A DNA stretch of 39,691 nucleotides, from the UHGV virus genome UHGV-1269212. The stretch is one strand, 5' to 3'. The notes beneath the pieces were generated by a model, which saw nothing but the letters and a program-made list of their open reading frames with translations, did not search any database and had not been told where the DNA came from. The stretch comes from a virus. Below are positions 11,009 to 36,492 of this stretch, piece by piece (the first letter of the stretch is position 1; each line of letters opens with the position of its first letter). A program made the position numbers and the translations under genes.

Positions 11009-13438
11009 TTGTATAATATAGTAACAGTAACTTTTAAGGATTCCAATACCGCAACGGCGAATGGAGTCCGGCAGTGGGACTATGGACAGATCTTAAGGAT
11101 ACAGGGTCTACAGCTCCCAACAGCAGTAGAGGTTCATTTTGCCCTCATAGACAGCAAAGATTCCGTAACGAGAATCGGAATAACAAAAGACGGAGTGACA
11201 GACGTTGTGATTCCGGACTCCATGATCGAGGCTGGGAAAAACATCTTTGCCTACGTCTATCTCAGGGATTCTGAATCTGGCCAGACAGAATATGAAATCA
11301 AGATTGTTGTAACCACAAGAGCGAAACCAGAAGCATTCGACACGCCAGAGGACAAGGAGCTATTTGCACAGGCAATCGAAGCAGTCAACGAAGCGGCAGA
11401 CCGGGCAGAGAAAGCCGGACAAGCTGCCACAGAAGCGGCAGGACAGGCGGCGGAAGATGCGCAGCAGACGGCGGAAGACCGGAAAGAAGTGGCTAAGATG
11501 GTAGAAACCGTCTCGGACATTTCGGAGCAGGTCAAAAAGGTTGAGGAATTAAGTAATAAAGTCCAAGAAGCAGCAACCAAAACCGGACAGGACGCACAGC
11601 AGACCGCAGAAGATCGTGTGGAAGTCGGTAAGATGCTGGAAACCGTCAGGGACGTATCCGAACAGGTAAAAAGCGTGGAAGAATCCGTCAGAAAAGCGAA
11701 GGAATCCGAACAGGCTGCGGCAGGACACAGAACCGCTGTGGAAGAAATGAAGAACAGTGTGGAGCAGACAGCAAGCACATTTCCGCAGAAAGTACAGGAA
11801 GGCGTGCAGGCGATCGAAAACGCCGGAGCGTCAGAAGTACAGGAAATCACCCAAGCCGGAACAGCTCAGAAAACAGCCGTAGAAGCCGCAGGGACGCAAG
11901 CAGTTGAGAGCGTGGAGAATGTGCAACAGGTAGCCACAGAAGCCGTGGAAACAGCGAAAACCGAAGCCGTACAGGCAGTACAGGCAGAGGGAGCGAAGCA
12001 GATCAAGGAAGTACAGGATAAAGGCGCAGAGGTATTGCAGTCTATTCCGGAAGACTTTGCAACGCAGATGGAAACTAAGCTGAATAAACAGCAGGGAATC
12101 GAGAACAAGGGTAAAGTTCTTGTGATCGAAGAAGATGGTAATGTAGTGCCTGGAGAAGTCGCTAGTGGTGGCGGAGATGGTATTGCAATTATAAACACCA
12201 TGAGTGGAGAAAGCCCACTTGTGATACCGGATAGTGCTGAGAGAGTAAATAAGGGGTTGGAGCTTGGTGGGAAGACGGAGCAGGTGACGACTACGGGAGC
12301 GCAGTTGTTCGATAAAGAAAATCTCGTAGTTGGTGTTCTTGAGTATGATGGAAGCATTGTATATAGTAATGGTTATTATACGAGTGACTATATTGCGGTA
12401 GAGCCTAATACAAAATACATCTGTACGAGAACTGGGTCAAAGAGGCTCAAATTTTACAGCGCAGATAAACAGCCTATCCAAACGGTTAGTTTTAGCGATG
12501 CTAATGTTGAGAAAGGTGGTAGTTTCACTACGAGAGAAACGACAAAATATGTGAGATTTTCTGTTGTGGGAGATTATATTAATACGGTCATGTTTACTTC
12601 AGGGATAAGTTTTTTACCTTACGAACCCTACACAGGCGGTAAACCATCCCCATCTTTAGAATATGAGCAGGAGGTCAAGAACGCCGGAAAGTGGAATGAG
12701 GGAACGCAGAAGTATGAAGTGGATGTGAAAGTTACCAACGCCGAGCAGAATTGGAGCAAAGAACAAACCCTCACTCTCACATCCGACCGCCCTCTCACAA
12801 AGTGGGACAGACTGGTAGAGCAGGGTGGACAGATTGGGTGGTTGTATGGGAGCGTGATAGCAACAATTGATGAAACCGCTGACATTTCTTTGTATGCGCC
12901 CAACGGATTCTTTATTCACGTCAAAAATATTGACAAGAAAGAAAAAACTGGATATTGCGACAAGTTGTACACAAAGAAAATGTCGAACGGGGAACCATTT
13001 GTCTTATTCGGGATTGCCAATAATAATTTTCTTTATACGCTTAACACTCAAGAGTTTTACGGGAAAACAGCTTCTGAAATTAAAGCAAAATTGAAAGAAT
13101 ACCCACTCAATATTATCGGAAAATCAGAAACCACCGAATTCGTCCCACTCCCACAATCCGAGCAGAACGCTATCCAAGCCTTAAAAACCTACTACCCTAC
13201 CACAGTAATCACGGTGGATGGTGGAGAAGTTGACCCAGATATTAAAGTAACATATACGGCGGATACAAAGAACTACATTGATGGAAAAGTGTCTGCAAAA
13301 GTGGCGAGCATTATAAGACAATATCGATTAAATACGGCAAATCTGCTATCTTTAATGCCTATGGAGACACAGGCAGCAATGATAGAAAATGATACAAATA
13401 ACATTTTAGAAAACGCGGAGGAAATGAAACGTGAATAA
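11009..13438 (+). CDS. Baseplate upper protein / tail fibre (BppU-like N-terminus, long Ala/Gln/Glu coiled coil, C-terminal putative receptor-binding domain)
   Basis: TTG start 8 nt after GAGGGAGG, in frame with the longer track ORF. Two copies of a 45-aa repeat (DAQQTAEDRKEVAKMVETVSDISEQVKKVEE...). About 300-aa non-repeat C-terminus. Confidence 0.5.
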   Translation: MYNIVTVTFKDSNTATANGVRQWDYGQILRIQGLQLPTAVEVHFALIDSKDSVTRIGITKDGVTDVVIPDSMIEAGKNIFAYVYLRDSESGQTEYEIKIVVTTRAKPEAFDTPEDKELFAQAIEAVNEAADRAEKAGQAATEAAGQAAEDAQQTAEDRKEVAKMVETVSDISEQVKKVEELSNKVQEAATKTGQDAQQTAEDRVEVGKMLETVRDVSEQVKSVEESVRKAKESEQAAAGHRTAVEEMKNSVEQTASTFPQKVQEGVQAIENAGASEVQEITQAGTAQKTAVEAAGTQAVESVENVQQVATEAVETAKTEAVQAVQAEGAKQIKEVQDKGAEVLQSIPEDFATQMETKLNKQQGIENKGKVLVIEEDGNVVPGEVASGGGDGIAIINTMSGESPLVIPDSAERVNKGLELGGKTEQVTTTGAQLFDKENLVVGVLEYDGSIVYSNGYYTSDYIAVEPNTKYICTRTGSKRLKFYSADKQPIQTVSFSDANVEKGGSFTTRETTKYVRFSVVGDYINTVMFTSGISFLPYEPYTGGKPSPSLEYEQEVKNAGKWNEGTQKYEVDVKVTNAEQNWSKEQTLTLTSDRPLTKWDRLVEQGGQIGWLYGSVIATIDETADISLYAPNGFFIHVKNIDKKEKTGYCDKLYTKKMSNGEPFVLFGIANNNFLYTLNTQEFYGKTASEIKAKLKEYPLNIIGKSETTEFVPLPQSEQNAIQALKTYYPTTVITVDGGEVDPDIKVTYTADTKNYIDGKVSAKVASIIRQYRLNTANLLSLMPMETQAAMIENDTNNILENAEEMKRE

Positions 13439-13613: not shown

Positions 13614-13696
13614 ACATTTTTATAGGTGGCGAATATGGAGATCAGGGCAAGACCGTAATGGTCTTATTTTTATACTTTAAAAACCGGAGGGAAAAC

Positions 13697-13978
13697 ATGA
13701 CAGAAAATGAAGTAGAAGTGAAACTTGCAGAGCACGGAAAAGAAATCGGCTCATTAAAGCATCGAATGAAAGAAGCAGAGGACGTTGTGAGCGTGGTACA
13801 TCAACTGGCACAAGAAATGGTAGGGCTAACCAAAGAGGTCGGCTTCATGAACCAGACGTTGGTACAACTCACCGCAAAGGTGACGCATCTTGAGCAGACA
13901 CCAGCTAAGAGATGGGATGGGGTTGTTACCGCTCTCATTGGAGCTATTATCGGTGCAGTAGCAGCAATGCTTTTTTAA
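13697..13978 (+). CDS. XhlA-like haemolysin / lysis accessory protein
   Basis: GGAGGGAAAAC RBS; 93 aa; N-terminal coiled coil with a single C-terminal TM helix (VVTALIGAIIGAVAAMLF). Confidence 0.5.
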   Translation: MTENEVEVKLAEHGKEIGSLKHRMKEAEDVVSVVHQLAQEMVGLTKEVGFMNQTLVQLTAKVTHLEQTPAKRWDGVVTALIGAIIGAVAAMLF

Positions 13979-14607: not shown

Positions 14608-14694
14608 ATGAGCGAACAGAACGAATTTGGCAGAACAACAGCAGAAGAACTGGAAAAAGCGTTTGAGACAGAAGAGCAGGAGGAACACAAGTAA
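14608..14694 (+). CDS. Small acidic peptide (28 aa) ending at the endolysin start
   Basis: GAAGGGAGG RBS 7 nt upstream of ATG 14608. The track ORF 14476..14694 is its in-frame extension, which has no RBS. Its stop overlaps the endolysin ATG (TAATG). Confidence 0.3.
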   Translation: MSEQNEFGRTTAEELEKAFETEEQEEHK

Positions 14695-15500
14695 TGAAAA
14701 TCGGTTTAAGAGGAGGCCACTCTCCGAATTGCAAGGGTGCGATCGGTCTGATTGATGAGCAGGCAGAAGTGCGGAAGATTTACAATGAGCTTGTACCAAT
14801 GCTGCAGGCTGTCGGTCATACTGTGGTTGACTGCAATTCCAACGCATCCAATGTGTCTGGCGAGCTGACTGACGGCACAAATAAGGCGAATGGAGCAGGA
14901 TGCGATATTTATGTCACCTTGCACATGAACGCCGCAGGAGCGACATCAGCAGGGGGCACAGAGGTGTGGTTATATGATGCATCTAACCAGACCATGAACA
15001 CGATCGCAAGCAACATCTGTAATAATTTTGCAGGAAAAGGATTTACTAACCGTGGTGTAAAGTACAGTTCGGGATACCATGATCTGAATGTATCTAATAT
15101 GCCTGGCATGATCGTGGAGACATTATTCTGCACTGGCACAGGTGATGTGGCCAGATATCGAAATTTAGGTACAAAAGGAATTGCTGAGCTGATTGCAAAG
15201 GCAATCGACAGTAGAGCGTCTGCATGCAGCGAACAAAAAAATAACCAGAATACAGGAATCGAACAGGAAGGAGAAGAAGAGATGAAATGTTTATTTACAG
15301 TAGAGGGAAAAGGTGCAGTGTATTATTTTGACGGTCAAAAAGTAATAACATTGGGTCATCCAGACGAATTAAAAATCATCCAGCAGATTTACAAGGACAA
15401 CAATGGTAAGGACATGCCGTGTTACAAGTGGAGTCCTAAAGCGCCATGGTATGCAAGGCTCATGTCGGTAATTTACAGTAAAGAGACCACATCTATTTAA
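14694..15500 (+). CDS. Endolysin: N-acetylmuramoyl-L-alanine amidase (Amidase_3-like) with a C-terminal cell-wall-binding region
   Basis: N-terminus MKIGLRGGHSPNCKGAIG..E...N...........DIYVTLHMNA... is typical of MurNAc-LAA. Confidence 0.75.
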   Translation: MKIGLRGGHSPNCKGAIGLIDEQAEVRKIYNELVPMLQAVGHTVVDCNSNASNVSGELTDGTNKANGAGCDIYVTLHMNAAGATSAGGTEVWLYDASNQTMNTIASNICNNFAGKGFTNRGVKYSSGYHDLNVSNMPGMIVETLFCTGTGDVARYRNLGTKGIAELIAKAIDSRASACSEQKNNQNTGIEQEGEEEMKCLFTVEGKGAVYYFDGQKVITLGHPDELKIIQQIYKDNNGKDMPCYKWSPKAPWYARLMSVIYSKETTSI

Positions 15501-18134: not shown

Positions 18135-18620
18135 TTATATCATTTCCATAACTGCTAAATTAGGAATAAAATAAATAACATAATTATCTACAGTAGTACA
18201 TTCACCATATTTTCCAGTATAGCAGTCAATAGCTTCCTGCAGATATTCTTCTGTGACATGTAGATGTTCTGCAACTTCATATCGATTCTGGCATCCAGCA
18301 TTAAAAGCGGATATGATACCACGCAACCCGATCATTCGGTTATATCCGCGTAATCGACCTTTTTGTTCTTGCTTTAGATTTTCAATATTCATTTGGTCAA
18401 TGATATTTCCAACAGCAGTGAAATGATGTCCCATTTCTTCTGCGAGTACACACGCTTTTTCTGTTGATGTTCTTAACCTATCAGATATTGCAATTCTATT
18501 TCTGAATATTCGTCCATCACTCCCGGACAGAGGCTTCTCACGGACTACGAGTCCGCTATTTTTCGCCTCTTCTAAAAGTTCCTCATAAATTGTCATCGTA
18601 TCACTCCCATTCAGAGTCAT
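18135..18620 (-). CDS. immA: ImmA/IrrE-family zinc metallopeptidase (anti-repressor protease)
   Basis: HEXXH motif AEEMGHHF; 20-nt overlap with the upstream XRE repressor gene, as in ImmR/ImmA pairs. Confidence 0.7.
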   Translation of the reverse strand: MTLNGSDTMTIYEELLEEAKNSGLVVREKPLSGSDGRIFRNRIAISDRLRTSTEKACVLAEEMGHHFTAVGNIIDQMNIENLKQEQKGRLRGYNRMIGLRGIISAFNAGCQNRYEVAEHLHVTEEYLQEAIDCYTGKYGECTTVDNYVIYFIPNLAVMEMI

Positions 18621-19092
18621 CCATCATGATGTCATCATCATGTTTTCTCATTTCATTGGTTACTTTAATATCGGTACGTTCGTGAGCCGCCATTACTGAT
18701 AGATCATCATCCATTTGTTGTATAGATAGCAATTGTTCAATGTAATTATCGGCTTTTCTTCTATTCATCTCAATCAACTGCAAATACTTTTTAAAATGAG
18801 TCTTTTCTCTCGAAGATAATGCGCCAATGTTATTAATTATATTTTCGAGATTATCATTTGTAAATACGTTTTCAATGTATTTATCGGTAGCTGAATCTAA
18901 ATCCATGAGATAGGTAGGTGAGCAATCAAAAATTTCTGACATTTTCGCAATAGTAGAACGTTTTATATTCTTAACTCGCCCATTCTCATATTTTGCTATC
19001 GCAGATTTTTGAAGCCCCAACTTTTGTGCAAGTTCTTCTTGGGTGAGCCCAACTTCTTTTCTTTTGCTCTTTATTCTATCTGACATTGCCAT
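18601..19092 (-). CDS. immR: XRE-family HTH repressor (CI/ImmR-like)
   Basis: N-terminal HTH (GLTQEELAQKLGLQKSAIAKYENG); divergent from the cro-like gene; AAAGGAG RBS. Confidence 0.8.
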   Translation of the reverse strand: MAMSDRIKSKRKEVGLTQEELAQKLGLQKSAIAKYENGRVKNIKRSTIAKMSEIFDCSPTYLMDLDSATDKYIENVFTNDNLENIINNIGALSSREKTHFKKYLQLIEMNRRKADNYIEQLLSIQQMDDDLSVMAAHERTDIKVTNEMRKHDDDIMMDDSEWE

Positions 19093-19112
19093 GTTTCTGT
19101 TCTCCTTTCGAT

Positions 19113-19239
19113 GTGTCTTAATTTTACTACATTAAATACGAGATTGCAAGCTTTTTGTGAAAAAGTGTCTTAAAAATATAAAAAAGTTGTTGACAATAAA
19201 GACACCCAGTGCTATTCTGTAAGTGTCTTAAACAGACAC
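19113..19239. promoter_or_regulatory. Immunity switch region. Leftward PRM: TTGCAA 19144-19149, TAAAAT as ATTTTA 19121-19126. Rightward PR: TTGACA 19190-19195, TATTCT 19213-19218. Operator dyad GTGTCTTAAACAGACAC 19223-19239. Half-sites GTGTCT at 19113 and 19165, AGACAC at 19200
   Basis: Hexamers with 17-nt spacers read directly; the GTGTCT-N5-AGACAC dyad overlaps the PR +1 region. Confidence 0.55.
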
Positions 19240-19265
19240 AAATAAATTAAAGGAGGTTTGGTAGG

Positions 19266-19472
19266 ATGAATAAAAACATGCTAGAGTCGGTCATGAAGCT
19301 AAATGGTGACACGGGAACTTCCCTTGCTTCTTATTTAGGGATTGCACGAGGTACGTTTTCCGCAAAAATCAACGAAACAAACGGTGCGGAATTTACTCAA
19401 GGAGAAATTTCTAGAATTAAGCAGAAGTATTCTTTGTGTGGGGAAGATATTGAAAAAATTTTTTTTGATTAA
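19266..19472 (+). CDS. Cro-like small HTH regulator
   Basis: 68 aa; AGGAGG RBS; first gene of the rightward early operon; HTH-like GTSLASYLGIARGTF segment. Confidence 0.45.
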   Translation: MNKNMLESVMKLNGDTGTSLASYLGIARGTFSAKINETNGAEFTQGEISRIKQKYSLCGEDIEKIFFD

Positions 19473-19475
19473 AAA

Positions 19476-19492
19476 GTGTCTAAAAAAGACAC
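19476..19492. promoter_or_regulatory. Second operator GTGTCTAAAAAAGACAC (same dyad and spacing as 19223-19239) immediately upstream of the Rha antirepressor RBS
   Basis: Perfect 6-5-6 dyad 14 nt upstream of ATG 19506. Confidence 0.55.
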
Positions 19493-19505
19493 AGAAAGAG
19501 GAAGT

Positions 19506-30818: not shown

Positions 30819-31415
30819 ATGAGAAAATTTAACTGGGACGAATTTAAAAATGAAGAAAATAAGATTGCAGTACACTGCAAGACAGAAGAGGAAGCGAAAG
30901 ACTTTTGCGAAAGAATGCATAAGCAAGGAATGAAGTGGTGTTCAGGCGAAAGCTACCTGAAAGAGACAAATTACGAATTCTGCGAAGAAGAAATATGTTA
31001 TATCAAAGGAGAGTTTTCGCCGTATCAGTACTATAAAAGCAATGGGTATGAAATCTTAGAATGGAGCGATTATATGAACAAAGAATTTACCAAGGCGGAT
31101 TTGAGAGATGGGATGGTGGTTGAACAGAGAGATGGGGACATGTATCTTGTATTGGCTGGGATGGTAGTGAGAAAAAGAGGATACAATCGTATAGGCGATT
31201 ATGATGATGACTTGAAATGCGCAGGTTATACAGGAGGAGACATCGTTAAAGTTTATAGAATTACTCCGGGATCACTCGGATGCGTAGAACATGTGTTTAT
31301 TAAATGCAACCTCGAACTCATCTGGGAGCGCAAAGAACCAAAGAAAATGACAGTGGAAGAAATGAAACAGAAGCTGGAAGAGCTGACAGGAGAGGAAATT
31401 GAGGTAACGGAATGA
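30819..31415 (+). CDS. Hypothetical protein
   Basis: GGTAGGAAAT-ATG RBS; 198 aa. Confidence 0.4.
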   Translation: MRKFNWDEFKNEENKIAVHCKTEEEAKDFCERMHKQGMKWCSGESYLKETNYEFCEEEICYIKGEFSPYQYYKSNGYEILEWSDYMNKEFTKADLRDGMVVEQRDGDMYLVLAGMVVRKRGYNRIGDYDDDLKCAGYTGGDIVKVYRITPGSLGCVEHVFIKCNLELIWERKEPKKMTVEEMKQKLEELTGEEIEVTE

Positions 31416-31452
31416 ACAGGGAAACCATGAGACGCAGGAAGGAGAAGAGAAA

Positions 31453-31896
31453 ATGCTAATTGAAGATAAAGTGCAGATAGAAGCAGTGAAAACAAGATCG
31501 TATATGATGGGCGAGATAGACGGAAAAGTGATGATTACGCAAGGTAGATATATTGTATTTGTGAAGAAAGAAGATTTCTTGCTCGACATAGATAAGCAGA
31601 AGAAATTGCCAGAAGATGGGGTGAAACATTTTTCCACAGAAAATATTCAGAGCCAAATGAGGGCGGCCAAGTTGTCAAACAGAATGCTTACAACTGGCAA
31701 AAGCATTCTGAGAGCAATAAGAGACGAGACAACAGGGGAATACGCTTGGTTTGATGATAAATATTTGAAAATGTTTGACGGATGCACGCCAAATCTTATT
31801 AAATACCAAGGAAACTCTGAATACTACGATGCCGTGTTTACACGCTACGGAGAAATAATAGGCATCATACTTCCTGTGAGGGTGAGTGAATGGTGA
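31453..31896 (+). CDS. Hypothetical protein
   Basis: AGGAAGGAGAAGAGAAA-ATG RBS; 147 aa. Confidence 0.4.
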   Translation: MLIEDKVQIEAVKTRSYMMGEIDGKVMITQGRYIVFVKKEDFLLDIDKQKKLPEDGVKHFSTENIQSQMRAAKLSNRMLTTGKSILRAIRDETTGEYAWFDDKYLKMFDGCTPNLIKYQGNSEYYDAVFTRYGEIIGIILPVRVSEW

Positions 31897-31932
31897 TAAT
31901 AAGCTAGATGCAGAAAGGAGACAGCGGACATC

Positions 31933-32142
31933 ATGAAGAAAATAGAAGCATACACTACGGCAACGAGAAAGCCCTGTGAGACCGCTTTAAAGCAACAGGA
32001 GCATAAAGCCTTTGCCTGTGATTTTAAAAGCCGTGAGAGGACGAATAAGGACGCTGTGGAGTACATAGCAGAGAAATACAACATAAAAGATCCTGTTCCG
32101 GGAGGTGATAGAGTTGGACAAGAAAACACTGAAAAAGTTTAG
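31933..32142 (+). CDS. Hypothetical small protein
   Basis: AAAGGAGACAGCGGACATC-ATG RBS; 69 aa. Confidence 0.35.
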   Translation: MKKIEAYTTATRKPCETALKQQEHKAFACDFKSRERTNKDAVEYIAEKYNIKDPVPGGDRVGQENTEKV

Positions 32143-32527
32143 ACCGAACAAAGATAGACTTATCCGGATTGAGAACCAGATACAAGAACTCAGTGAACGG
32201 GAATCGACTGTTGTCATGGGGAAGGTAACGGGATCTAGCGCAGATTTTCCGTACACCGAAGTGAGAACGTCTGTACAAATGTATGACCCTTACGAAGAAG
32301 AGAATGTAAGACGGCAGATCAGAAGAAAAGAAGCGGATAGGCTACTGATTCTGAAGGAGCAGAAAGAAGTTGAAGACTACATAAATGGGATTGATGATCC
32401 GGAGATTAAGGAGATATTCGAGTTGCACTATCTTGAGGGGAAAACCCAGCAAAAAGTCGCAGATGAAATTGGATATACCCAGGCGCGAGTATCGCAGATT
32501 ATAAGCGCACAGCTTAAAGATTTATAG
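32114..32527 (+). CDS. Late-gene transcriptional activator (sigma-70 region-4-like; ArpU/RinA-class)
   Basis: TTG start 6 nt after GGAGGTGA; C-terminal HYLEGKTQQKVADEIGYTQARVSQI HTH; sits just upstream of the packaging genes. Confidence 0.5.
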   Translation: MDKKTLKKFRPNKDRLIRIENQIQELSERESTVVMGKVTGSSADFPYTEVRTSVQMYDPYEEENVRRQIRRKEADRLLILKEQKEVEDYINGIDDPEIKEIFELHYLEGKTQQKVADEIGYTQARVSQIISAQLKDL

Positions 32528-32605
32528 CATTTATATTTTACTTATGCTATAATTATTCTAGAACGATTGTATATTGTTCTAAAACAATCTTTCCAAACAT
32601 TCAGA

Positions 32606-32648
32606 ACACCGCCGGACTTTTACCCTTTCTTGTCTGGCGGTGTTTTTA
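32606..32648 (+). terminator. Intrinsic terminator ACACCGCCGGAC-14 nt-GTCTGGCGGTGT + TTTTTA
   Basis: 12-bp stem with one G·U pair, followed by a U-run. Confidence 0.6.
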
Positions 32649-32649
32649 T

Positions 32650-32693
32650 GCCGTGGTCAGTTGGGACAAGCAGGTTCGATCCCTGCACACGGC
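32650..32693 (+). ncRNA. tRNA-like minihelix: acceptor stem (GCCGTG/CACGGC), a short D-like hairpin and a canonical T-arm (GCAGG-TTCGATC-CCTGC), with no anticodon arm
   Basis: Base-pairing read directly; TTCGATC T-loop; 44 nt. Confidence 0.35.
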
Positions 32694-32869
32694 TATTGTG
32701 ACATATTACTGCATACCGGGAGCAGTAAAGAGTCACATGTGATATCACAAAACGCAGATATCCGCAGATCTGCAAAAGACAACAAATAAAAAATAGATTC
32801 GGTAATCTATATTTAGTGTCAGTACCCGAGTGCGGATAGGGTAAAGGATGTCAATAAAAGGCATCCTGA

Positions 32870-32943
32870 TCGGACATAGCTCAGTCGGTTAGAGCGGCAG
32901 CCTTATAAGCTGTGTGTCACGGGTTCGATTCCCGTTGTCCGGA
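32870..32943 (+). tRNA. tRNA with anticodon TAT (Ile; AUA codon)
   Basis: 74-nt cloverleaf: acceptor TCGGACA/TGTCCGG (U1·G72), D-arm GCTC-AGTCGGTTA-GAGC, anticodon loop CTTATAA, 5-nt variable loop, T-arm ACGGG-TTCGATT-CCCGT, discriminator A, no encoded CCA. Confidence 0.6.
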
Positions 32944-33050
32944 TTGTGGGCTACTGCAAGTTCCTCATTGTGTTAGAGAATCCAGTAAAGTTGCCAAGTT
33001 ACGTATTTTTGCAGTAGTCCTATAAATTTTAAAAACCTCTGAGAAAAGTA

Positions 33051-33079
33051 TTGACATATGGTTAACCATATGATATTAT
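33051..33079 (+). promoter_or_regulatory. Consensus sigma-70 promoter TTGACA-17-TG-n-TATTAT with a perfect 18-bp palindrome CATATGGTTAACCATATG (33055-33072) filling the spacer
   Basis: Hexamers and dyad read directly; AAGGAGGTGA RBS and ATG 33105 lie downstream. Confidence 0.6.
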
Positions 33080-33104
33080 ATACTTGTAAGGAGGTGAGAT
33101 ACAG

Positions 33105-33218
33105 ATGAGCAAGAAACGAAAGAAAAAAGAGAGCTTGCCAAGATTGATAATCGAATCGTTAATCGCAACTGGGGCGCTATTAACTGGGATTGCCAATCTT
33201 ATAGAAGCTCTCAAATAG
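33105..33218 (+). CDS. 37-aa peptide MSKKRKKKESLPRLIIESLIATGALLTGIANLIEALK (polybasic N-terminus, hydrophobic/amphipathic C-terminus)
   Basis: Strong RBS 7 nt upstream; GGGGC-GAAA-GCCCC hairpin at 33224-33237 follows the stop. Confidence 0.4.
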   Translation: MSKKRKKKESLPRLIIESLIATGALLTGIANLIEALK

Positions 33219-33272
33219 GGGACGGGGCGAAAGCCCCAATCCTTAATAGAAGTATAGCTCATCTTGGAAGAA

Positions 33273-33437
33273 ATGAAAAGAACTAAATTCGGAGAATTGT
33301 TTTTATTGTTTGCAATCGTTTATTTTGTGGCATCTGATAAAAATATCTATTCATCCATTTTTCTTATTTTAGCATCTGTTTATTTATTGATAGACATAGT
33401 ACCAAGACTGTGGAAGGAGTGGAAGAAATGCCGGTAG
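33273..33437 (+). CDS. Small two-TM membrane protein (54 aa)
   Basis: ATG with a weak GGAAGAA RBS; very hydrophobic; not in the ORF track. Confidence 0.25.
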   Translation: MKRTKFGELFLLFAIVYFVASDKNIYSSIFLILASVYLLIDIVPRLWKEWKKCR

Positions 33438-33631
33438 GTAGTCCAAAACCTCAAACGATTGCATCGGAGAAGTATCAAAAGAAAGCAGGATGGATGACAA
33501 AGGGTTTCAAGATAAAGCGAGAGTTAGCGGATGAATTTGCAGAAGCATGTGAAACTGCAGGAGTCAGTCAAGCTTCAAAGATAAGCGAACTTATGAAAGC
33601 ATTCATAGAAGAAGTAAATAATGGAAAATAG
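33428..33631 (+). CDS. Small DNA-binding protein, ribbon-helix-helix-like
   Basis: GGAAGGAGTGGAAGAA-ATG RBS; KGFKIKRELADEFAEACETAGVSQASKISELMKAF looks like a beta-strand then two helices. Confidence 0.35.
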   Translation: MPVGSPKPQTIASEKYQKKAGWMTKGFKIKRELADEFAEACETAGVSQASKISELMKAFIEEVNNGK

Positions 33632-33986
33632 TAGAGAGCATCTGGCGAAAGCCGGGTGCTTTTCTAGTGAGGAAAAGATGAAATTTTATGAGAGTCGAAA
33701 ATGGAAAAAGAAAAGAGAACACATACTAAGGCGTGACAGCTATCAATGCCAAGAGTCAAAGAGATATGGGAAGTATGCAGAAGCAACGACAGCGCACCAT
33801 ATCTATCCACTGGAAGAGTATCCAGAGCTTGCATTTGTGGACTGGAATCTTATCAGTATGTCCACTGCACAACATGACAGGATGCACGACAGGAAGACAG
33901 GTAAGGTCACAGCTGCTGGATTGTACTGGCAGAGAAAAAGAAGAAGGGAGTTTGAAGCATGGAAAAAATCAAGATGTATGCAGTGA
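33621..33986 (+). CDS. HNH endonuclease (terminase-associated)
   Basis: C..C...HH...N...H pattern (CQESKRYGK..HHIYPLEEYPELAFVDWNLISMSTAQHDRMH); immediately upstream of terS/terL. Confidence 0.7.
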   Translation: MENSREHLAKAGCFSSEEKMKFYESRKWKKKREHILRRDSYQCQESKRYGKYAEATTAHHIYPLEEYPELAFVDWNLISMSTAQHDRMHDRKTGKVTAAGLYWQRKRRREFEAWKKSRCMQ

Positions 33987-34264
33987 AATGGAGAGGTAAA
34001 GCAAGTGATTACGGATACGAAGCAATGCACATAATCGAGGAGATTGTTAAGACATGCATGGAGTGTTGCGGAGGAGATATATACACTAGATACAGAATAA
34101 GTGGTGGACTTAAATTCGAAACAGTGAAAATAGATATAGTTACATTAGGAAAAGAAAAAGCAGTCAGCATGGTCGAATGGTTCAAAGATAAAGTTGGAAT
34201 GGAAATGAAAATGGAAGAGATTGAGGTATCCCCCCCTCCCTTTGAGGTAGCAGCAGGAGCATAG
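33959..34264 (+). CDS. Hypothetical protein between HNH and TerS
   Basis: 101 aa; GGGAG RBS. Confidence 0.35.
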   Translation: MEKIKMYAVKWRGKASDYGYEAMHIIEEIVKTCMECCGGDIYTRYRISGGLKFETVKIDIVTLGKEKAVSMVEWFKDKVGMEMKMEEIEVSPPPFEVAAGA

Positions 34265-34344
34265 GAGAATCGGGAGAGAGGACTCTTTCCAATAGAGCGG
34301 ATTTGTGAAAATAAATTTTCCGGCAGATAAGGAGGTGAGAATAG

Positions 34345-34707
34345 ATGGCGAGATATATACCACAGAAGCAAACAATCATCGACAGAACAGTCAGATACAT
34401 GAAAGAGCTTGGAACCTACAAAGTGCAGTATAAACAGGTAATCGAGATATATGCAGACATGATCTATCAGTATAATGTCTTAAGTAAACAGTTTGAAGAG
34501 TCTGGATACGAAGTAATTCTGGACACGGAGAAAAGTGGGGGTAAAAAAAGTCCTATTCTCGTGAGTCTCGAAAATCTCAGGAAAGATATCGGAACATATT
34601 CCGACAGACTGATGTTGAATGCGAAAACGTACAATGCGGAGATTGAACAGCCGAAAAAAGAGAAATCTGCATTTGCATTATTACTGGAAAAGCAGCAGGG
34701 GAAGTAA
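34345..34707 (+). CDS. terS: Terminase small subunit (P27 family)
   Basis: AAGGAGGTGAGAATAG-ATG RBS; 120 aa; directly upstream of the large subunit. Confidence 0.65.
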   Translation: MARYIPQKQTIIDRTVRYMKELGTYKVQYKQVIEIYADMIYQYNVLSKQFEESGYEVILDTEKSGGKKSPILVSLENLRKDIGTYSDRLMLNAKTYNAEIEQPKKEKSAFALLLEKQQGK

Positions 34708-36492
34708 ATGGACTTATCCCATATTAGCAGTCCGCATTTCGATACGGCTGTGCGTTATGCGGAAGATATCGTAAGTAGGAAAGTCCTGGTAAATATAGAC
34801 AGAGTACTTGCGTGCAAAAGATTTCTGGAAGATTTGGAGCGTGACGATCTGGATTTTCGTAGCGATCAATTTGATTTTGTGATTGATCTAATTGAGGGGA
34901 CCATCCACCACGTACAAGGTGAGGATAAGAATGGAGTGAGCTTTAAAGGTACTCCAATGTTATTGACGGATTGGCAGAAATTTGTATGTGTGAATCTGTT
35001 TGGATTCTTCCGGAAAGGCACAGACATTAGGCGTTTTAACGAAGCGCTTATTTTTTTACCAAGAAAACAGGGAAAAACATCCTTTAGTGCTGCGCTTGCT
35101 GAAGCAAAGAGTATTTTGGATAGATGTTCCGGTGCAAAGACATATATTGTAGCCAATTCCGTAAAACAGACAATGGAAAGTTTTGGATTTTTGGTAGATA
35201 ACGTTGAGACTTTACGCGGAGATGTTGATAAGTTGAGAATCCGAAACAACAATCAGGAGCACTCCATCCGTATTGATTTTGGAGATGGTACCGCAGAAAT
35301 GTATGCGATTGCCAACCAAGAGGACAAATTGGACTCTCTGAACTGTAACTGCCTGATTCTTGACGAGCTGCATTCCTGGAAGAGAGCAGCGGCAAAGAAA
35401 TATATACTGATGAAAAATGCTATGAAAGCGTATCGGAACAAGCTTTTGATTGGTATTTCTACGGCTGGTGATATTCCAGATGGTTTTTTAGCAAATAGGT
35501 TAAATACGTTACATGGAGTTTTGGATGGAACAAATACAGAAAAGGCGTATGACTCCTATTTTATTTTTATTTGCAAAGCAGATCAGGACAAAGAAGGCAA
35601 TGTTTTAAACAGCAAAGGCGAGATCACGACATTGGATGATCCGGAAGTATTGCAGATGTGCACGCCGTCAATCGGAGTCACTGTTACAATAGAAGACCTT
35701 ATGGATGATGCAGCGCAGGCAATGAATGAACCGCAGTTAAGGGCGGAGTACCTGAATAAAACTCTGAATATCTTTACAAATGCTCTGAATGCATACTTTG
35801 ACATTAACGAGTTCAGATCATCCGATGATGAATACAACTGGACACTGGAAGAGTTGGCGAAGCTCCCAATCACATGGTATGGCGGAGCCGACTTGTCGAA
35901 ACTTCACGATCTGACCGCAGGCGCAATTTACGGAACGTACAAAGATGTTGATATCTGTATCACACATGCGTTCTTCCCGAGGGCGGCCGCAATTAAAAAA
36001 GCGGATGAGGATGGTATCCCACTGTTTGGTTGGGAAGAGGATGGATGGCTGACGATGAGTAATACAGCCACAGTACTTCCGGATGACATTGTAAACTGGT
36101 TTATCTCCATAAAAAAGATGGGATTCAAAATAAAAATTGTTGGATTCGACAAGAAATTCGGACGAGAGTTTTTCTTAAAAATGAAAAAATCTGGATTTAA
36201 GATTCAAGATCAGCCACAGTATTTTTACGTGAAGTCTGAGGGATTCCGGCATATCGAAGTGAAAATGAAGAATAAGAAATTTTACTATCTACATTCGGAC
36301 GCTTTTGAATATTGCGTGCAGAACGTAAGGGCAATTGAAAAAGTGGATGACATGATCCAATATGAAAAGGTAGACGGAGACGGCGGCGTAAGACGAATTG
36401 ATTTGTTTGATGCCGGTGTCTTTTCATGTTGCCAGATGTTGGCTGACATGGCACTTGGAAATGCAGCAAATAAATGGTTAAAGAGAGAATAG
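34708..36492 (+). CDS. terL: Terminase large subunit
   Basis: 594 aa; N-terminal ATPase and C-terminal nuclease regions typical of Terminase_1. Confidence 0.85.
   Translation: MDLSHISSPHFDTAVRYAEDIVSRKVLVNIDRVLACKRFLEDLERDDLDFRSDQFDFVIDLIEGTIHHVQGEDKNGVSFKGTPMLLTDWQKFVCVNLFGFFRKGTDIRRFNEALIFLPRKQGKTSFSAALAEAKSILDRCSGAKTYIVANSVKQTMESFGFLVDNVETLRGDVDKLRIRNNNQEHSIRIDFGDGTAEMYAIANQEDKLDSLNCNCLILDELHSWKRAAAKKYILMKNAMKAYRNKLLIGISTAGDIPDGFLANRLNTLHGVLDGTNTEKAYDSYFIFICKADQDKEGNVLNSKGEITTLDDPEVLQMCTPSIGVTVTIEDLMDDAAQAMNEPQLRAEYLNKTLNIFTNALNAYFDINEFRSSDDEYNWTLEELAKLPITWYGGADLSKLHDLTAGAIYGTYKDVDICITHAFFPRAAAIKKADEDGIPLFGWEEDGWLTMSNTATVLPDDIVNWFISIKKMGFKIKIVGFDKKFGREFFLKMKKSGFKIQDQPQYFYVKSEGFRHIEVKMKNKKFYYLHSDAFEYCVQNVRAIEKVDDMIQYEKVDGDGGVRRIDLFDAGVFSCCQMLADMALGNAANKWLKRE

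What the first reader, a model, noticed from the sequence alone, without database searches (positions are those of the whole stretch)
33051..33237. Perfect consensus promoter with an 18-bp palindrome in its spacer, driving a 37-aa polybasic/hydrophobic peptide
TTGACA, a 17-nt spacer, then TG-n-TATTAT is an unusually perfect sigma-70 promoter. Its spacer is filled by the perfect palindrome CATATGGTTAACCATATG, the classic geometry of a tightly repressed promoter.

It drives a peptide with a strong RBS (MSKKRKKKESLPRLIIESLIATGALLTGIANLIEALK), which ends at a GC stem with a GAAA tetraloop. That architecture resembles a type I-toxin-like or small membrane-active peptide.

The cassette sits between the tRNA and the packaging genes, followed by a small membrane ORF and an RHH-like protein that could be the cognate repressor.
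Basis: seen in the sequence. Interest (0 to 1): 0.65.

Follow-up and report, generated by a model that had tools for sequence, protein, structure and literature searches.

The report
Self-repressed phage membrane-peptide cassette
A strong promoter with a built-in repressor site drives two tiny membrane peptides and their probable repressor in a gut-bacterium phage; the same cassette recurs in well over a hundred related gut phages and prophages, and its RNA folds to hide the first peptide's start codon, as toxin genes do.

Summary
TTGACA-17-TGnTATTAT (33051-33079) holds a perfect 18-bp palindrome (33055-33072) and drives a real 37-aa peptide gene followed by a GAAA-loop hairpin.

The window is a Ruminococcus gnavus temperate phage close to phiRgPS_6. 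The feature is the front end of a compact cassette: promoter/operator, peptide A (polybasic N-terminus, one TM helix), GNRA hairpin, peptide B (two TM helices), RHH protein, terminator-like hairpin.

The exact promoter/operator string occurs in 113 viral contigs, and 96 of 101 evaluable copies have the RHH gene downstream. Of 71 RHH genes found independently, 58 carry the operator (consensus CATAnGGT-N2-ACCnTATG) upstream. A and B are under purifying selection.

New finding: a covarying long-range mRNA helix pairs A's start codon (33103-33110) with the segment where B's ribosome-binding site would lie (33257-33264). A conserved antisense promoter-like element lies beside it but is weak in this window.

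The ImmR alternative is not supported. Best reading: an RHH-autorepressed accessory cassette whose cargo is a tightly gated, type-I-toxin-like membrane-peptide pair. Toxicity, RHH binding and the antisense RNA are untested. I found no description of the cassette.

The parts
33051..33056 (+). -35 hexamer TTGACA of the cassette promoter
   Evidence: TTGACA was fixed by the search pattern in the 113 viral contigs. In the RHH-anchored loci, which were not selected on it, it is kept or nearly kept.
33055..33072 (.). 18-bp dyad operator CATATGGT-TA-ACCATATG; family consensus CATAnGGT-N2-ACCnTATG; half-site centres 10 bp apart
   Evidence: Unique in the window. The central 2 bp vary freely (GC 49, AC 30, TA 26 and others). 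In the unbiased RHH-anchored set, 58 of 71 loci have it with 3 or fewer mismatches, 305-385 nt upstream of RHH. There are 34 operator variants: 7 symmetric double changes against 3.3 +/- 1.5 expected, and 35 single-arm changes. As an RNA hairpin it is weak, -7.6 kcal/mol.
33071..33079 (+). Extended -10: TG-a-TATTAT
   Evidence: Variants in relatives are TATTAT, TAATAT, TATAAT and TATACT.
33090..33096 (+). Shine-Dalgarno GGAGGTG of peptide A; unpaired in the predicted mRNA fold
   Evidence: (nearly invariant column block).
33103..33110 (+). 5' arm (AGAUGAGC) of the long-range mRNA helix; contains A's start codon 33105-33107
   Evidence: Complementary partner found in 76 of 87 variants at 7-12 nt exact. 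77% of cells paired against 68% in shuffles; 82 cells changed on both sides against 26; 0 of 500 shuffles reach either value. Present in the window's MFE fold.
33105..33218 (+). Peptide A, 37 aa, MSKKRKKKESLPRLIIESLIATGALLTGIANLIEALK: polybasic N-terminus plus one hydrophobic helix
   Evidence: The ORF is kept at 35-45 aa in all 137 complete cassettes, across at least 5 sequence subfamilies. pN/pS is 0.26 against 0.82 and 1.27 in the off-frames. No Pfam, PHROG, NCBIfam or PADLOC family. Not annotated in phiRgPS_6.
33216..33245 (+). Stop-proximal hairpin; core GGGGC-GAAA-GCCCC at 33224-33237; mostly GNRA loops in relatives; no U-tract
   Evidence: -16.1 kcal/mol. RNAalifold predicts it from the 94-sequence alignment; 4 of 5 pairs show compensatory changes. 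Alternative stems in relatives are listed.
33251..33279 (-). Candidate convergent (antisense) promoter: -35 TTTTCA 33279-33274, 17 nt, -10 TATACT 33256-33251; predicted start near 33244
   Evidence: The best sigma-70-like site in the A-B spacer is on the minus strand at the same position in 38 of 38 variants. A TAnnnT element is present in 86 of 94 variants, mostly TATAnT, and 54 have TGn. In this window it is weak: score 7.1, reached by 75 of 200 shuffles. No transcript evidence.
33257..33264 (+). 3' arm (GCUCAUCU) of the long-range helix; ends 8 nt before B's AUG, where B's SD would lie
   Evidence: The arm ends 4-10 nt before B's ATG in 85 of 87 variants.
33273..33437 (+). Peptide B, 54 aa, two predicted TM helices (MKRTKFGELFLLFAIVYFVASDKNIYSSIFLILASVYLLIDIVPRLWKEWKKCR); overlaps the RHH start by 10 nt
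   Evidence: pN/pS is 0.22 against 0.77 and 1.02 in the off-frames. B subfamilies (1-TM of 28-34 aa, or 2-TM of 52-58 aa) pair with fixed A subfamilies. Only weak TM-biased family hits. Not annotated in phiRgPS_6.
33428..33631 (+). RHH-type DNA-binding protein, 67 aa; candidate autorepressor of the cassette promoter
   Evidence: Annotated as RHH regulator gp58 in phiRgPS_6. Sub-threshold hits to CopG, Arc and RepB-RCR_reg. At least 241 close homologue clusters. Invariant K25, K28, K30 and G45-V46-S47. AF2 helices 31-44 and 48-65 are confident. Weak Foldseek hits are mostly RHH proteins. pN/pS 0.14.
33637..33664 (+). Terminator-like hairpin AGCAUCUGGC-GAAA-GCCGGGUGCU followed by UUUC, closing the cassette before HNH (ATG 33678)
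   Evidence: -21.6 kcal/mol, z = -6.0. The consensus scan did not list it. A strict-criteria terminator follows RHH in 25 of 104 non-redundant relatives, against a 2.7% background.

Best explanation
This is a self-contained, autoregulated phage accessory cassette (a 'moron') with a constant regulatory platform and a gated cargo.

Platform (inferred). A near-consensus sigma-A promoter carries an 18-bp dyad operator between its -35 and -10 elements. The last gene of the transcript encodes a small RHH protein. As a dimer of dimers on half-sites 10 bp apart, it would occlude both promoter elements. That gives negative autoregulation independent of the phage's ImmR immunity repressor.

Cargo (shown to be real genes; function inferred). 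A cognate pair of small membrane peptides. A has a polybasic N-terminus and one TM helix. B has two TM helices here and one in many relatives.

Translational gate (helix shown by covariation; consequence inferred). A conserved long-range mRNA helix pairs A's AUG region with the segment 4-10 nt upstream of B's AUG. It encloses the A ORF and a GNRA hairpin. It would mask both initiation sites at once, keep the full-length mRNA poorly translatable, and tie B synthesis to A initiation.

Possible third layer (candidate only). A convergent promoter just 3' of the hairpin could make an antisense RNA against A.

Strong promoter, protein repressor, start-codon-masking fold-back and a possible antisense RNA are how bacteria and phages handle dangerous membrane peptides such as type I toxins. 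So A is most likely a membrane-active toxin or effector and B its partner or immunity factor. The probable benefit is to the phage or prophage: stabilisation (addiction), abortive infection or exclusion, or control of host physiology at the early/late boundary.
For: - Promoter, operator and ORFs as described.
- The cassette is absent from sibling R. gnavus phages at the same slot and present at 99.6% identity in phiRgPS_6.
- A diverged copy at about 70% identity keeps the promoter and both operator arms exactly.
- 113 viral contigs hold the exact promoter/operator string. 96 of 101 evaluable copies have RHH within 600 nt.
- RHH-anchored loci from 80 species-representative genomes: 58 of 71 have the operator inside a TTGACA...TATAAT promoter at a fixed distance.
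- Arms are conserved, the centre is free, and symmetric changes are enriched.
- The platform occurs with other cargo (phage Villandry, a 96-aa soluble protein) or none (L004, L082).
- A, B and RHH are under purifying selection in frame only. A and B subfamilies form fixed pairs on a single RHH family.
- Long-range helix: own duplex -15.4 kcal/mol against -7.2 shuffled, and 4.4 kcal/mol better than with foreign partners. Covariation score 0.251 against 0.112, 0 of 500 shuffles; slid registers 25-41% paired. G.U at GUG starts fits the + strand RNA. Present in the window's MFE fold, z = -3.9.
- The 3' arm sits 4-10 nt before B's ATG in 85 of 87 variants.
- Hairpin covariation.
- Antisense promoter-like element at a constant position in 38 of 38 variants.
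- Literature parallels: a 5'-3' interaction masks the toxin's ribosome-binding region, and kissing loops engage the antisense RNA, in aapA1 and hok (PMC5416894). The P22 ant moron has RHH repressors plus sar antisense RNA and variable cargo (PMC2629481).
Against: - No experiment or transcript data: RHH binding, transcription starts, the antisense RNA and peptide toxicity are all inferred.
- The RHH assignment rests on sub-threshold family hits. The AF2 monomer does not show the beta-strand.
- Operator covariation is modest (35 of 2000 permutations reach the observed count), and there is no clear co-variation between RHH residues and operator variants.
- In this window the antisense promoter is no better than chance on its own. 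No terminator for an antisense RNA was found.
- Part of the conserved block read as an antisense promoter is explained by the helix arm itself.
- Unlike classical type I systems, the helix masks the AUG rather than the SD, its 3' arm is internal to a polycistronic mRNA, and a protein regulator is present.
- The arm-to-arm alignment used was anchored with a duplex predictor, and the sequences are related, so the shuffle statistics overstate independence.
- A phiRgPS6 lysogen does not exclude the three sibling phages tested (PMC10072058, Table 2), which argues against one of the proposed benefits.
- The module is absent from PLSDB plasmids, where addiction modules are common.
Confidence: 0.55

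Rival explanations
1. Non-toxic lysogenic-conversion or superinfection-exclusion cassette. A and B are benign small membrane proteins made at a low, RHH-set level in the lysogen. They alter the envelope or block DNA entry of other phages. The RNA helix only sets the A:B stoichiometry.
For: Moron-like anatomy and presence/absence among sibling phages. Own promoter and terminator-like hairpin. Membrane peptides in fixed pairs. Some copies lie next to integrases or at prophage ends, a typical moron site.
Against: A phiRgPS6 lysogen is immune only to itself; three related phages lacking the cassette still plaque on it (PMC10072058, Table 2). Start-codon masking on top of a repressor on a near-consensus promoter is more control than known exclusion genes need. 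No PADLOC hit.
Confidence: 0.2
2. Lytic-cycle membrane effector, such as a holin/antiholin-like pair, pinholin or depolarising timer. It would be expressed as a brief RHH-limited pulse at the early/late boundary to prepare the cell for packaging or to tune lysis timing.
For: The preferred site is immediately upstream of the packaging module, whatever its type (HNH, TerS, TerL, portal). Two small TM peptides with opposite charge polarity. Weak PHROG holin hit for B, E = 0.0046. Negative autoregulation of a strong promoter gives a pulse after infection.
Against: The phage's lysis module (XhlA-like protein, endolysin 14694-15500) is about 18 kb away. The holin hit is weak and TM-biased. The platform also occurs away from packaging genes and with soluble cargo. 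Sibling phages propagate without the cassette (PMC10072058).
Confidence: 0.1
3. A and B have no function of their own. They are upstream leader ORFs whose translation and RNA structure merely tune expression of the RHH regulator, which has another target.
For: RHH is the most conserved gene (pN/pS 0.14; a single family) while A and B are diverse. The platform exists without A and B.
Against: A and B amino-acid sequences are under purifying selection in frame only. They keep polybasic and TM features across subfamilies and co-vary as pairs. The operator occurs only once in the phage, so no second RHH target is visible.
Confidence: 0.07
4. The palindrome is bound by the phage's ImmR/CI-type repressor, so the cassette is silent in lysogens and switched on at induction.
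For: The window encodes an ImmR-like HTH_3 repressor and an ImmA-like M78 peptidase. An 18-bp dyad also suits an HTH dimer.
Against: The immunity intergenic region has its own repeated dyad GTGTCT-N6-AGACAC in at least 3 copies, unrelated to the cassette operator. No other copy of the operator, and no enrichment of its half-sites, exists in the window. The operator is conserved across many phages together with RHH and across differing genomic contexts; I did not compare those phages' immunity regions.
Confidence: 0.03
5. The palindrome acts as a nucleic-acid hairpin or is incidental, for example a terminator for leftward transcription or a cluster of restriction sites (NdeI-HpaI-NdeI).
For: The terminator scan flagged it. 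It would be transcribed if an antisense RNA extended that far.
Against: As RNA it is only -7.6 kcal/mol, with no adjacent U-tract on either strand. Single-arm changes (35) outnumber symmetric ones (7), so pairing is not strictly kept. Its position is locked to the -35 and -10 elements in all relatives.
Confidence: 0.02

Closest known systems
Type I toxin-antitoxin systems with fold-back toxin mRNAs (hok/sok of plasmid R1; aapA1/IsoA1 of Helicobacter pylori; clostridial prophage type I TAs)
   Same: A small hydrophobic membrane peptide expressed from a strong promoter. The peptide's translation start is buried in a long-range helix that closes off the whole ORF (PMC5416894 for aapA1 and hok). 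A stable hairpin could serve as a kissing-loop target. There is a convergent promoter-like element. The module is carried on a mobile element or prophage.
   Different: - The helix masks the AUG, not the SD.
- Its 3' arm is not at an mRNA 3' end; it sits in front of a second cistron in a three-gene operon.
- A dedicated RHH protein and operator are present.
- A second membrane peptide always accompanies the first.
- The charge layout is reversed: polybasic N-terminus then TM, rather than TM then basic tail.
- The antisense RNA and toxicity are unproven.
- No Rfam or Pfam family matches.
Phage P22 immunity I region, the 'ant moron' (arc, mnt, sar RNA, ant)
   Same: An independently expressed insert in a phage morphogenesis-side operon. 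It is controlled by small RHH repressors that autoregulate, plus a small antisense RNA made from within the unit. Its cargo is highly variable between related phages (PMC2629481). From my own recollection of the classical P22 literature, not checked here: the Arc operator lies between the -35 and -10 of Pant. Arc is among the top weak structural matches of the RHH protein (31-36% identity over about 33 residues).
   Different: No sequence-level homology was established. The RHH gene is last rather than first in the transcript. The cargo is a membrane-peptide pair rather than an antirepressor. There is no second repressor and no divergent promoter. The host is a Firmicute. The long-range start-codon helix has no P22 counterpart that I know of.
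CopG / CopB (RepB-RCR_reg, RepA2) plasmid copy-number RHH repressors
   Same: These are the best, still sub-threshold, sequence matches of the RHH protein (PF10723, 14.6 bits against a cut-off of 21; NF010256). They are small RHH proteins that repress the promoter of their own operon through a symmetric element overlapping the promoter (established knowledge of CopG from pMV158).
   Different: No replication gene is present. The module is absent from 72,556 plasmids. A 24-residue, highly conserved N-terminal extension (MPxGxPxxQTIAxxKYxKKAG) is not part of CopG.
Long-distance translational coupling in RNA phage MS2 (the Min Jou interaction)
   Same: The initiation site of one cistron is base-paired to a distant segment of another cistron, so ribosome traffic on one opens the other (established knowledge).
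   Different: Here both initiation regions are paired with each other. The context is a DNA-phage operon, and the partners are two membrane peptides.

Membership tests
Type I toxin-antitoxin system | Toxin is a small (<60 aa) hydrophobic, membrane-targeted peptide | tested here: met
   37 aa, polybasic N-terminus and about 22 hydrophobic residues. Conserved as a 35-45 aa ORF under purifying selection.
Type I toxin-antitoxin system | Peptide is toxic when expressed | not testable with these tools
Heavy multilayer control is only circumstantial.
Type I toxin-antitoxin system | Antisense RNA antitoxin complementary to the toxin mRNA | tested here: inconclusive
   A minus-strand promoter-like element is at a constant position in 38 of 38 variants, strong in most. 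It is weak in this window (75 of 200 shuffles as good). No terminator found. No Rfam hit. No transcript data.
Type I toxin-antitoxin system | Toxin mRNA translation start sequestered by stable, often 5'-3' long-range, pairing | tested here: met
   Covarying 8-12 bp helix over the AUG; present in the MFE fold. Departures: the SD is left free, and the 3' arm is internal to the operon.
Type I toxin-antitoxin system | Belongs to a described toxin or antitoxin family | tested here: not met
   No Pfam, NCBIfam, PHROG, PADLOC or Rfam family for A or the region.
Ribbon-helix-helix (Arc/MetJ/CopG) repressors | Beta-strand, helix, G-x-S/T/N turn, helix fold forming an intertwined dimer | tested here: inconclusive
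   Sequence pattern K25-x-F-K28-I-K30, then a helix, then invariant G45-V46-S47, then a helix. AF2 monomer gives confident helices 31-44 and 48-65 but no strand. 17 of 23 weak Foldseek hits are RHH proteins, all with E > 1. The dimer could not be modelled.
Ribbon-helix-helix (Arc/MetJ/CopG) repressors | Passes a curated RHH family threshold | tested here: not met
   PF10723 at 14.6 bits against 21; NF010256 at 16 against 87; PHROG CopG/Arc families at E 0.01-0.06. A few homologues carry precomputed PF10723. GenBank calls gp58 an RHH regulator.
Ribbon-helix-helix (Arc/MetJ/CopG) repressors | Binds a repeated or symmetric operator overlapping the regulated promoter | not testable with these tools
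   Operator and RHH co-occur in 96 of 101 and 58 of 71 loci. The half-site geometry, 10 bp centre to centre, fits a dimer of dimers. Binding was not tested.
Phage moron (independently expressed accessory insert) | Own promoter and own terminator inside a phage operon | tested here: met
   Promoter. A -21.6 kcal/mol hairpin plus U-run follows RHH. Terminators after RHH are enriched 9-fold in relatives.
Phage moron (independently expressed accessory insert) | Present or absent between otherwise related phages, and found in different contexts | tested here: met
   Present in phiRgPS_6 and absent from at least six related R. gnavus phage records at the same slot. Found elsewhere next to integrases, at prophage ends, or before other packaging modules.
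Holin / antiholin lysis proteins | Encoded in the lysis cassette next to the endolysin; matches a holin family | tested here: not met
   Endolysin at 14694-15500 and an XhlA-like gene at 13658-13978, about 18 kb away. Only a weak PHROG holin hit for B, E = 0.0046.
Superinfection exclusion / anti-phage defence system | Matches a known defence family, or the lysogen excludes heterologous phages | tested here: not met
   No PADLOC hit for A, B or the window's RHH protein. Published spot tests show a phiRgPS6 lysogen is immune only to phiRgPS6 (PMC10072058, Table 2). Only three sibling phages were tested.

The most novel reading that the evidence does not exclude
The cassette is a previously unrecognised class of phage-borne toxin-control module. 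It merges type I logic (fold-back mRNA, antisense RNA) with type II-like logic (an RHH autorepressor). A single RNA helix couples a membrane toxin (A) to its membrane immunity partner (B). It is conserved at the early/late gene boundary of well over a hundred Lachnospiraceae phages and prophages, where it would stabilise the prophage or gate host physiology before DNA packaging.
Probability: 0.3. Interest if true: 0.8.

Novelty: new variant of a known kind. Interest (0 to 1): 0.66.

Why it matters
The cassette is unannotated apart from its RHH gene, yet it is one of the more widespread conserved accessory modules of human-gut Lachnospiraceae phages. It was found in 113 viral contigs by exact string, in 140 loci of species-representative genomes, and in at least 241 RHH protein clusters.

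It offers a compact set of parts with clear predictions: a near-consensus promoter with a defined 18-bp operator and candidate repressor, usable as a genetic switch in hard-to-engineer gut Clostridia; and a covariation-supported long-range RNA helix that masks two start sites at once.

If peptide A is a toxin, this would extend type-I-like toxin control to a new architecture and a new clade. It would also provide a candidate prophage-stabilisation or host-control factor in a bacterium linked to inflammatory bowel disease. The host, the phage and sequenced lysogens already exist (PMC10072058), so every prediction is directly testable.

Tried and rejected
- Rfam, at gathering and permissive thresholds, gave only the tRNA.
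- Pfam, PHROGs, NCBIfam and PADLOC gave nothing usable for A or B.
- A profile search of PDB sequences with the RHH alignment gave no significant hit.
- tblastn of RHH against plasmids found nothing.
The accepted monomer model cannot show the RHH strand.
- A half-site search of the window for extra operators was at chance level.
- RNAalifold on the MAFFT alignment recovered only the hairpin. The 3' arm of the long-range helix is misaligned between the B-type groups, so I used an alignment-free duplex test and an anchored gapless alignment instead.
- I looked for a terminator for the putative antisense RNA upstream of the promoter and found only about twice the background rate. A U-run antisense to the lysine codons, following a long stem, is only a speculation.
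- I looked for co-variation between RHH strand residues and operator variants by eye and saw none convincing.
- A simple insertion model against sibling phages was rejected. The whole tRNA-to-HNH slot is replaced, not interrupted.
- My first coordinate for the HNH start was off by one; it was corrected to 33678.
Full report
**1. What is in the sequence**

- Promoter: TTGACA (33051-33056), a 17-nt spacer, TG (33071-33072) and TATTAT (33074-33079). That is 11 of 12 consensus positions plus an extended -10. It is the only such site in 31000-36000; the other ten promoter-like hits score 9 of 12.
- Palindrome: CATATGGTTAACCATATG (33055-33072) overlaps the end of the -35 and the TG motif. It is unique in the window even with three mismatches allowed.
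- Genes: a GGAGGTG Shine-Dalgarno (33090-33096) precedes a 37-aa ORF (33105-33218). Then come a GGGGC-GAAA-GCCCC hairpin (33224-33237; extended stem -16.1 kcal/mol) with no U-tract, a 54-aa two-TM ORF (33273-33437), and a 67-aa ORF (33428-33631) overlapping it by 10 nt.
- End of the unit: a -21.6 kcal/mol hairpin plus U-run (33637-33664), just before the HNH gene. The true HNH start is 33678.
- Flanks: a RinA/ArpU-like sigma-region-4 activator (32105-32527) and tRNA-Ile(UAU) (32870-32943) upstream; HNH, TerS and TerL downstream.

**2. Where it comes from**

The window is a Ruminococcus (Mediterraneibacter) gnavus temperate siphophage. The cassette region is 99.6% identical to phiRgPS_6 (MT980839). 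In that record only the third ORF is annotated, as an RHH transcriptional regulator; peptides A and B are not. Sibling phages such as phiRg507T2_2 share the flanks but have a different tRNA and an unrelated roughly 300-nt segment between the tRNA and HNH. So the cassette occupies a variable slot.

**3. It is a widespread module**

- A human-gut phage scaffold (MT837199) carries the same three genes at about 70% DNA identity. It keeps the promoter and both 8-bp palindrome arms exactly and changes only the central dinucleotide. There the cassette lies next to an integrase.
- Scanning IMG/VR for TTGACATATGGTNNACCATATG returned 113 contigs. The centre is free (GC 49, AC 30, TA 26, GT 5 and others).
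- Of 101 copies with enough flank, 96 have the RHH gene within 600 nt. Three of the five exceptions are chance matches inside coding sequence.
- That set fixed the arms by design, so I also fetched loci through the RHH protein from one genome per species. This gave 140 hits, 80 retrieved, almost all Lachnospiraceae. In 58 of 71 scorable loci, the operator (3 or fewer mismatches) sits inside a TTGACA...TATAAT promoter 305-385 nt upstream of RHH.
- The 34 operator variants give the consensus CATAnGGT-N2-ACCnTATG. Symmetric double changes occur 7 times against 3.3 +/- 1.5 expected (35 of 2000 permutations reach 7). There are 35 single-arm changes.
- This pattern fits recognition by a symmetric protein better than an obligately paired hairpin. 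As RNA, the palindrome is only -7.6 kcal/mol.

**4. Who binds the operator**

RHH is the best candidate for three reasons.
- It co-occurs with the operator in both directions.
- The pair persists when the cargo changes. In L004 and L082 the promoter drives RHH directly. In Enterocloster phage Villandry a 39%-identical RHH follows a 96-aa soluble protein, behind TTGACA-17-TAAAAT with the operator variant CATTGGGT-AC-ACCCTATA.
- The half-site centres are 10 bp apart, which suits two RHH dimers on one face of the DNA, as in Arc.

The RHH assignment itself is suggestive, not proven.
- Hits to CopG, Arc and RepB-RCR_reg are all below threshold.
- K25, K28 and K30 are invariant in an alternating strand-like segment, and the turn G45-V46-S47 between two helices is invariant.
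- The AF2 monomer (pLDDT 78) is confident only for the two helices.
- 17 of 23 weak PDB matches are RHH proteins (Arc 31-36% identity, CopG, ParG, MazE, AmrZ), all with E > 1.

The ImmR alternative fails. The window has an ImmR/ImmA pair (18601-19092 and 18135-18620). Their control region carries a different repeated dyad, GTGTCT-N6-AGACAC. Neither the cassette operator nor any enrichment of its half-sites appears elsewhere in the window.

**5. The peptides are real genes and form a cognate pair**

- All 137 complete cassettes have A (35-45 aa), B and RHH.
- pN/pS in the annotated frame against the two off-frames: A 0.26 against 0.82 and 1.27; B 0.22 against 0.77 and 1.02; RHH 0.14 against 1.78 and 1.74.
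- A always has a basic, usually strongly polybasic, N-terminus and one hydrophobic helix, but falls into at least five subfamilies.
- B is either a 28-34 aa single-TM peptide with a basic C-terminus or a 52-58 aa two-TM hairpin.
- A and B subfamilies travel as fixed pairs, while all RHH proteins form one family.
- No curated family covers A or B.

**6. RNA-level control (new here)**

*Hairpin.* The hairpin after A's stop codon keeps its structure while its sequence changes. Loops are mostly GNRA on the + strand. RNAalifold recovers it with compensatory changes in 4 of 5 pairs.

*Long-range helix.* The conserved block further downstream is the reverse complement of A's start region, and the two sides co-vary. 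Examples: ACAGATGAGC with GCTCATCTGT...GAGT with ACTC..., CAGATGGG with CCCATCTG, AAAGATGGCGA with TCGCCATCTTT, ACAGGTGAGT with ACTCACCTGT (a GTG start), AAGCCAATG with CATTGGCTT.
- A cassette's own duplex averages -15.4 kcal/mol, against -7.2 for shuffled 3' regions. It is 4.4 kcal/mol better than with 3' regions from cassettes whose 5' arm differs.
- On 72 distinct arm pairs, 77.2% of cells pair against 67.7 +/- 0.6% in shuffles. 82 cells change on both sides against 26 +/- 4. The covariation score is 0.251 against 0.112. No shuffle of 500 reaches any of these. Slid registers give 25-41% paired.
- GUG starts pair as G.U five times and as G-C once, which fits the + strand RNA.
- Caveats: the arm alignment was anchored with a duplex predictor, and the sequences are related.
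- In the window the helix is AGAUGAGC (33103-33110) with GCUCAUCU (33257-33264). It appears in the MFE fold of the predicted transcript, which is unusually stable (-56 kcal/mol, z = -3.9) and leaves the SD unpaired.
- The 3' arm ends 4-10 nt before B's ATG in 85 of 87 variants, where B's SD would be. Many B genes have no recognisable SD.
- So one helix masks A's AUG and B's ribosome-binding region together. The regulatory consequence is inferred.

*Candidate antisense promoter.* Between the hairpin and the 3' arm, the minus strand reads as a promoter pointing at A.
- It is the best sigma-70-like site in the spacer in 38 of 38 variants, at a constant position and nearly always with 17-nt spacing. 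An example is TTTACA-17-TGnTATATT, reached by at most 5 of 200 shuffles.
- A TAnnnT hexamer, mostly TATAnT, is present in 86 of 94 variants, and 54 of them have TGn.
- In this window it is weak (TTTTCA-17-TATACT; 75 of 200 shuffles as good). No terminator for such an RNA was found.
- Part of the conservation is explained by the helix arm lying in its spacer. I treat it as a candidate only.

**7. Context and phenotype**

- At least 66 of 131 copies with flank lie directly upstream of an HNH/terminase module recognisable with my reference proteins.
- Most of the rest lie before other HNH, TerS, TerL or portal types. A few are next to integrases or host genes.
- A strict-criteria terminator follows RHH in 25 of 104 non-redundant relatives, against a 2.7% background.
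- The module is absent from 72,556 plasmids.
- The lysis genes of this phage are about 18 kb away.
- Published spot tests show that a phiRgPS6 lysogen resists only phiRgPS6; three siblings lacking the cassette still plaque (PMC10072058, Table 2).

**8. Interpretation**

Shown by comparative evidence:
- a conserved promoter/operator tied to an RHH gene;
- two genuine small membrane-peptide genes in cognate pairs;
- a covarying hairpin;
- a covarying long-range helix over A's start codon and B's initiation region.

Inferred:
- RHH autorepression;
- translational masking and coupling by the helix;
- antisense transcription;
- toxicity of A and a partner or immunity role for B.

The design resembles type I toxin genes. 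In aapA1 and hok, a 5'-3' interaction hides the ribosome-binding region, and hairpin loops engage the antisense RNA (PMC5416894). As a unit, it resembles the P22 'ant moron', which combines RHH repressors with the sar antisense RNA and has variable cargo (PMC2629481).

It fails membership of any described type I family. The antisense RNA and toxicity are unproven, it adds a protein repressor and a second peptide, and its fold-back arm is internal to an operon. I therefore file it as a new variant of known kinds of control, not a member of a known family. I found no paper describing it.

**9. Scores**

The anatomy is solid, widespread and directly testable in an available host-phage system. The function is still a hypothesis. 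Interest 0.66. Confidence in the overall best explanation 0.55: roughly 0.8 for the regulatory architecture and about 0.4 for the toxin/immunity function.

Noticed in passing
window 32870-32943: Phage-encoded tRNA-Ile with anticodon UAU (reads AUA) just upstream of the cassette. Sibling phages carry tRNA-Asn, and sometimes tRNA-Ala, in the same slot.
   Followed up: partly
window 19100-19500: The ImmR/ImmA control region holds at least three copies of a dyad GTGTCT-N6-AGACAC (e.g. 19221-19242, 19474-19495). These are probably the immunity operators. A Rha-family regulator starts at 19476.
   Followed up: partly
window 33105-33437; MT980839 (L001): Peptides A and B are not annotated in the GenBank record of phiRgPS_6; only the RHH gene (gp58) is. 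B has almost no entries in the 5.8-billion-protein collection. Gene callers seem to miss these genes systematically.
   Followed up: yes
L197 1494-1510 (Clostridium phage Villandry, ON453902): The RHH homologue has no start codon in its frame. Removing one G from a G5 run (1499-1503) would fuse it to an ATG overlapping the upstream stop codon (ATGA). This could be a sequencing error, a pseudogene or programmed slippage.
   Followed up: no
L048 (IMGVR_UViG_3300045988_093879), about 54-237 nt downstream of the -35 box: One copy of peptide A is frameshifted within the lysine-codon A-run, giving a 60-aa read-through product. The long A-runs at the 5' end of A could be slippage-prone in general.
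   Followed up: no
L044 (IMGVR_UViG_3300010167_000078), within about 1.1 kb downstream of the operator at 11636-11657: The exact promoter/operator string is followed by different cargo (a 62-aa soluble protein) and two unrelated CopG-like small proteins (MMGRPTTNPRTEKIGFRMSKDE...), rather than the usual RHH.
   Followed up: no
L004, L082, L012, L016 and related loci: Some RHH proteins are 139-149 aa long with a strongly acidic C-terminal extension (...EELKSYSFDELKDFFEPNEEFEE...). In L004 and L082 this long form is driven directly by the promoter, without peptides A and B.
   Followed up: no
window 33125-33245, minus strand: The antisense of A's lysine codons is a U-run (UUUUUUCUUUC) that follows a long stem in the predicted antisense fold (z = -4.7). 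It could terminate a roughly 120-nt antisense RNA, but this is speculative.
   Followed up: partly
L002 2740-2945 (phiRg507T2_2) and many IMG/VR loci: Phages lacking the cassette, and several that have it, carry a small Cys-rich (zinc-ribbon-like) ORF immediately upstream of HNH, sometimes followed by a tRNA.
   Followed up: no
window 33055-33072: The operator consists of restriction-enzyme palindromes: NdeI (CATATG) twice, flanking HpaI (GTTAAC). In relatives the central HpaI site is lost while the CATATG arms are mostly kept.
   Followed up: no
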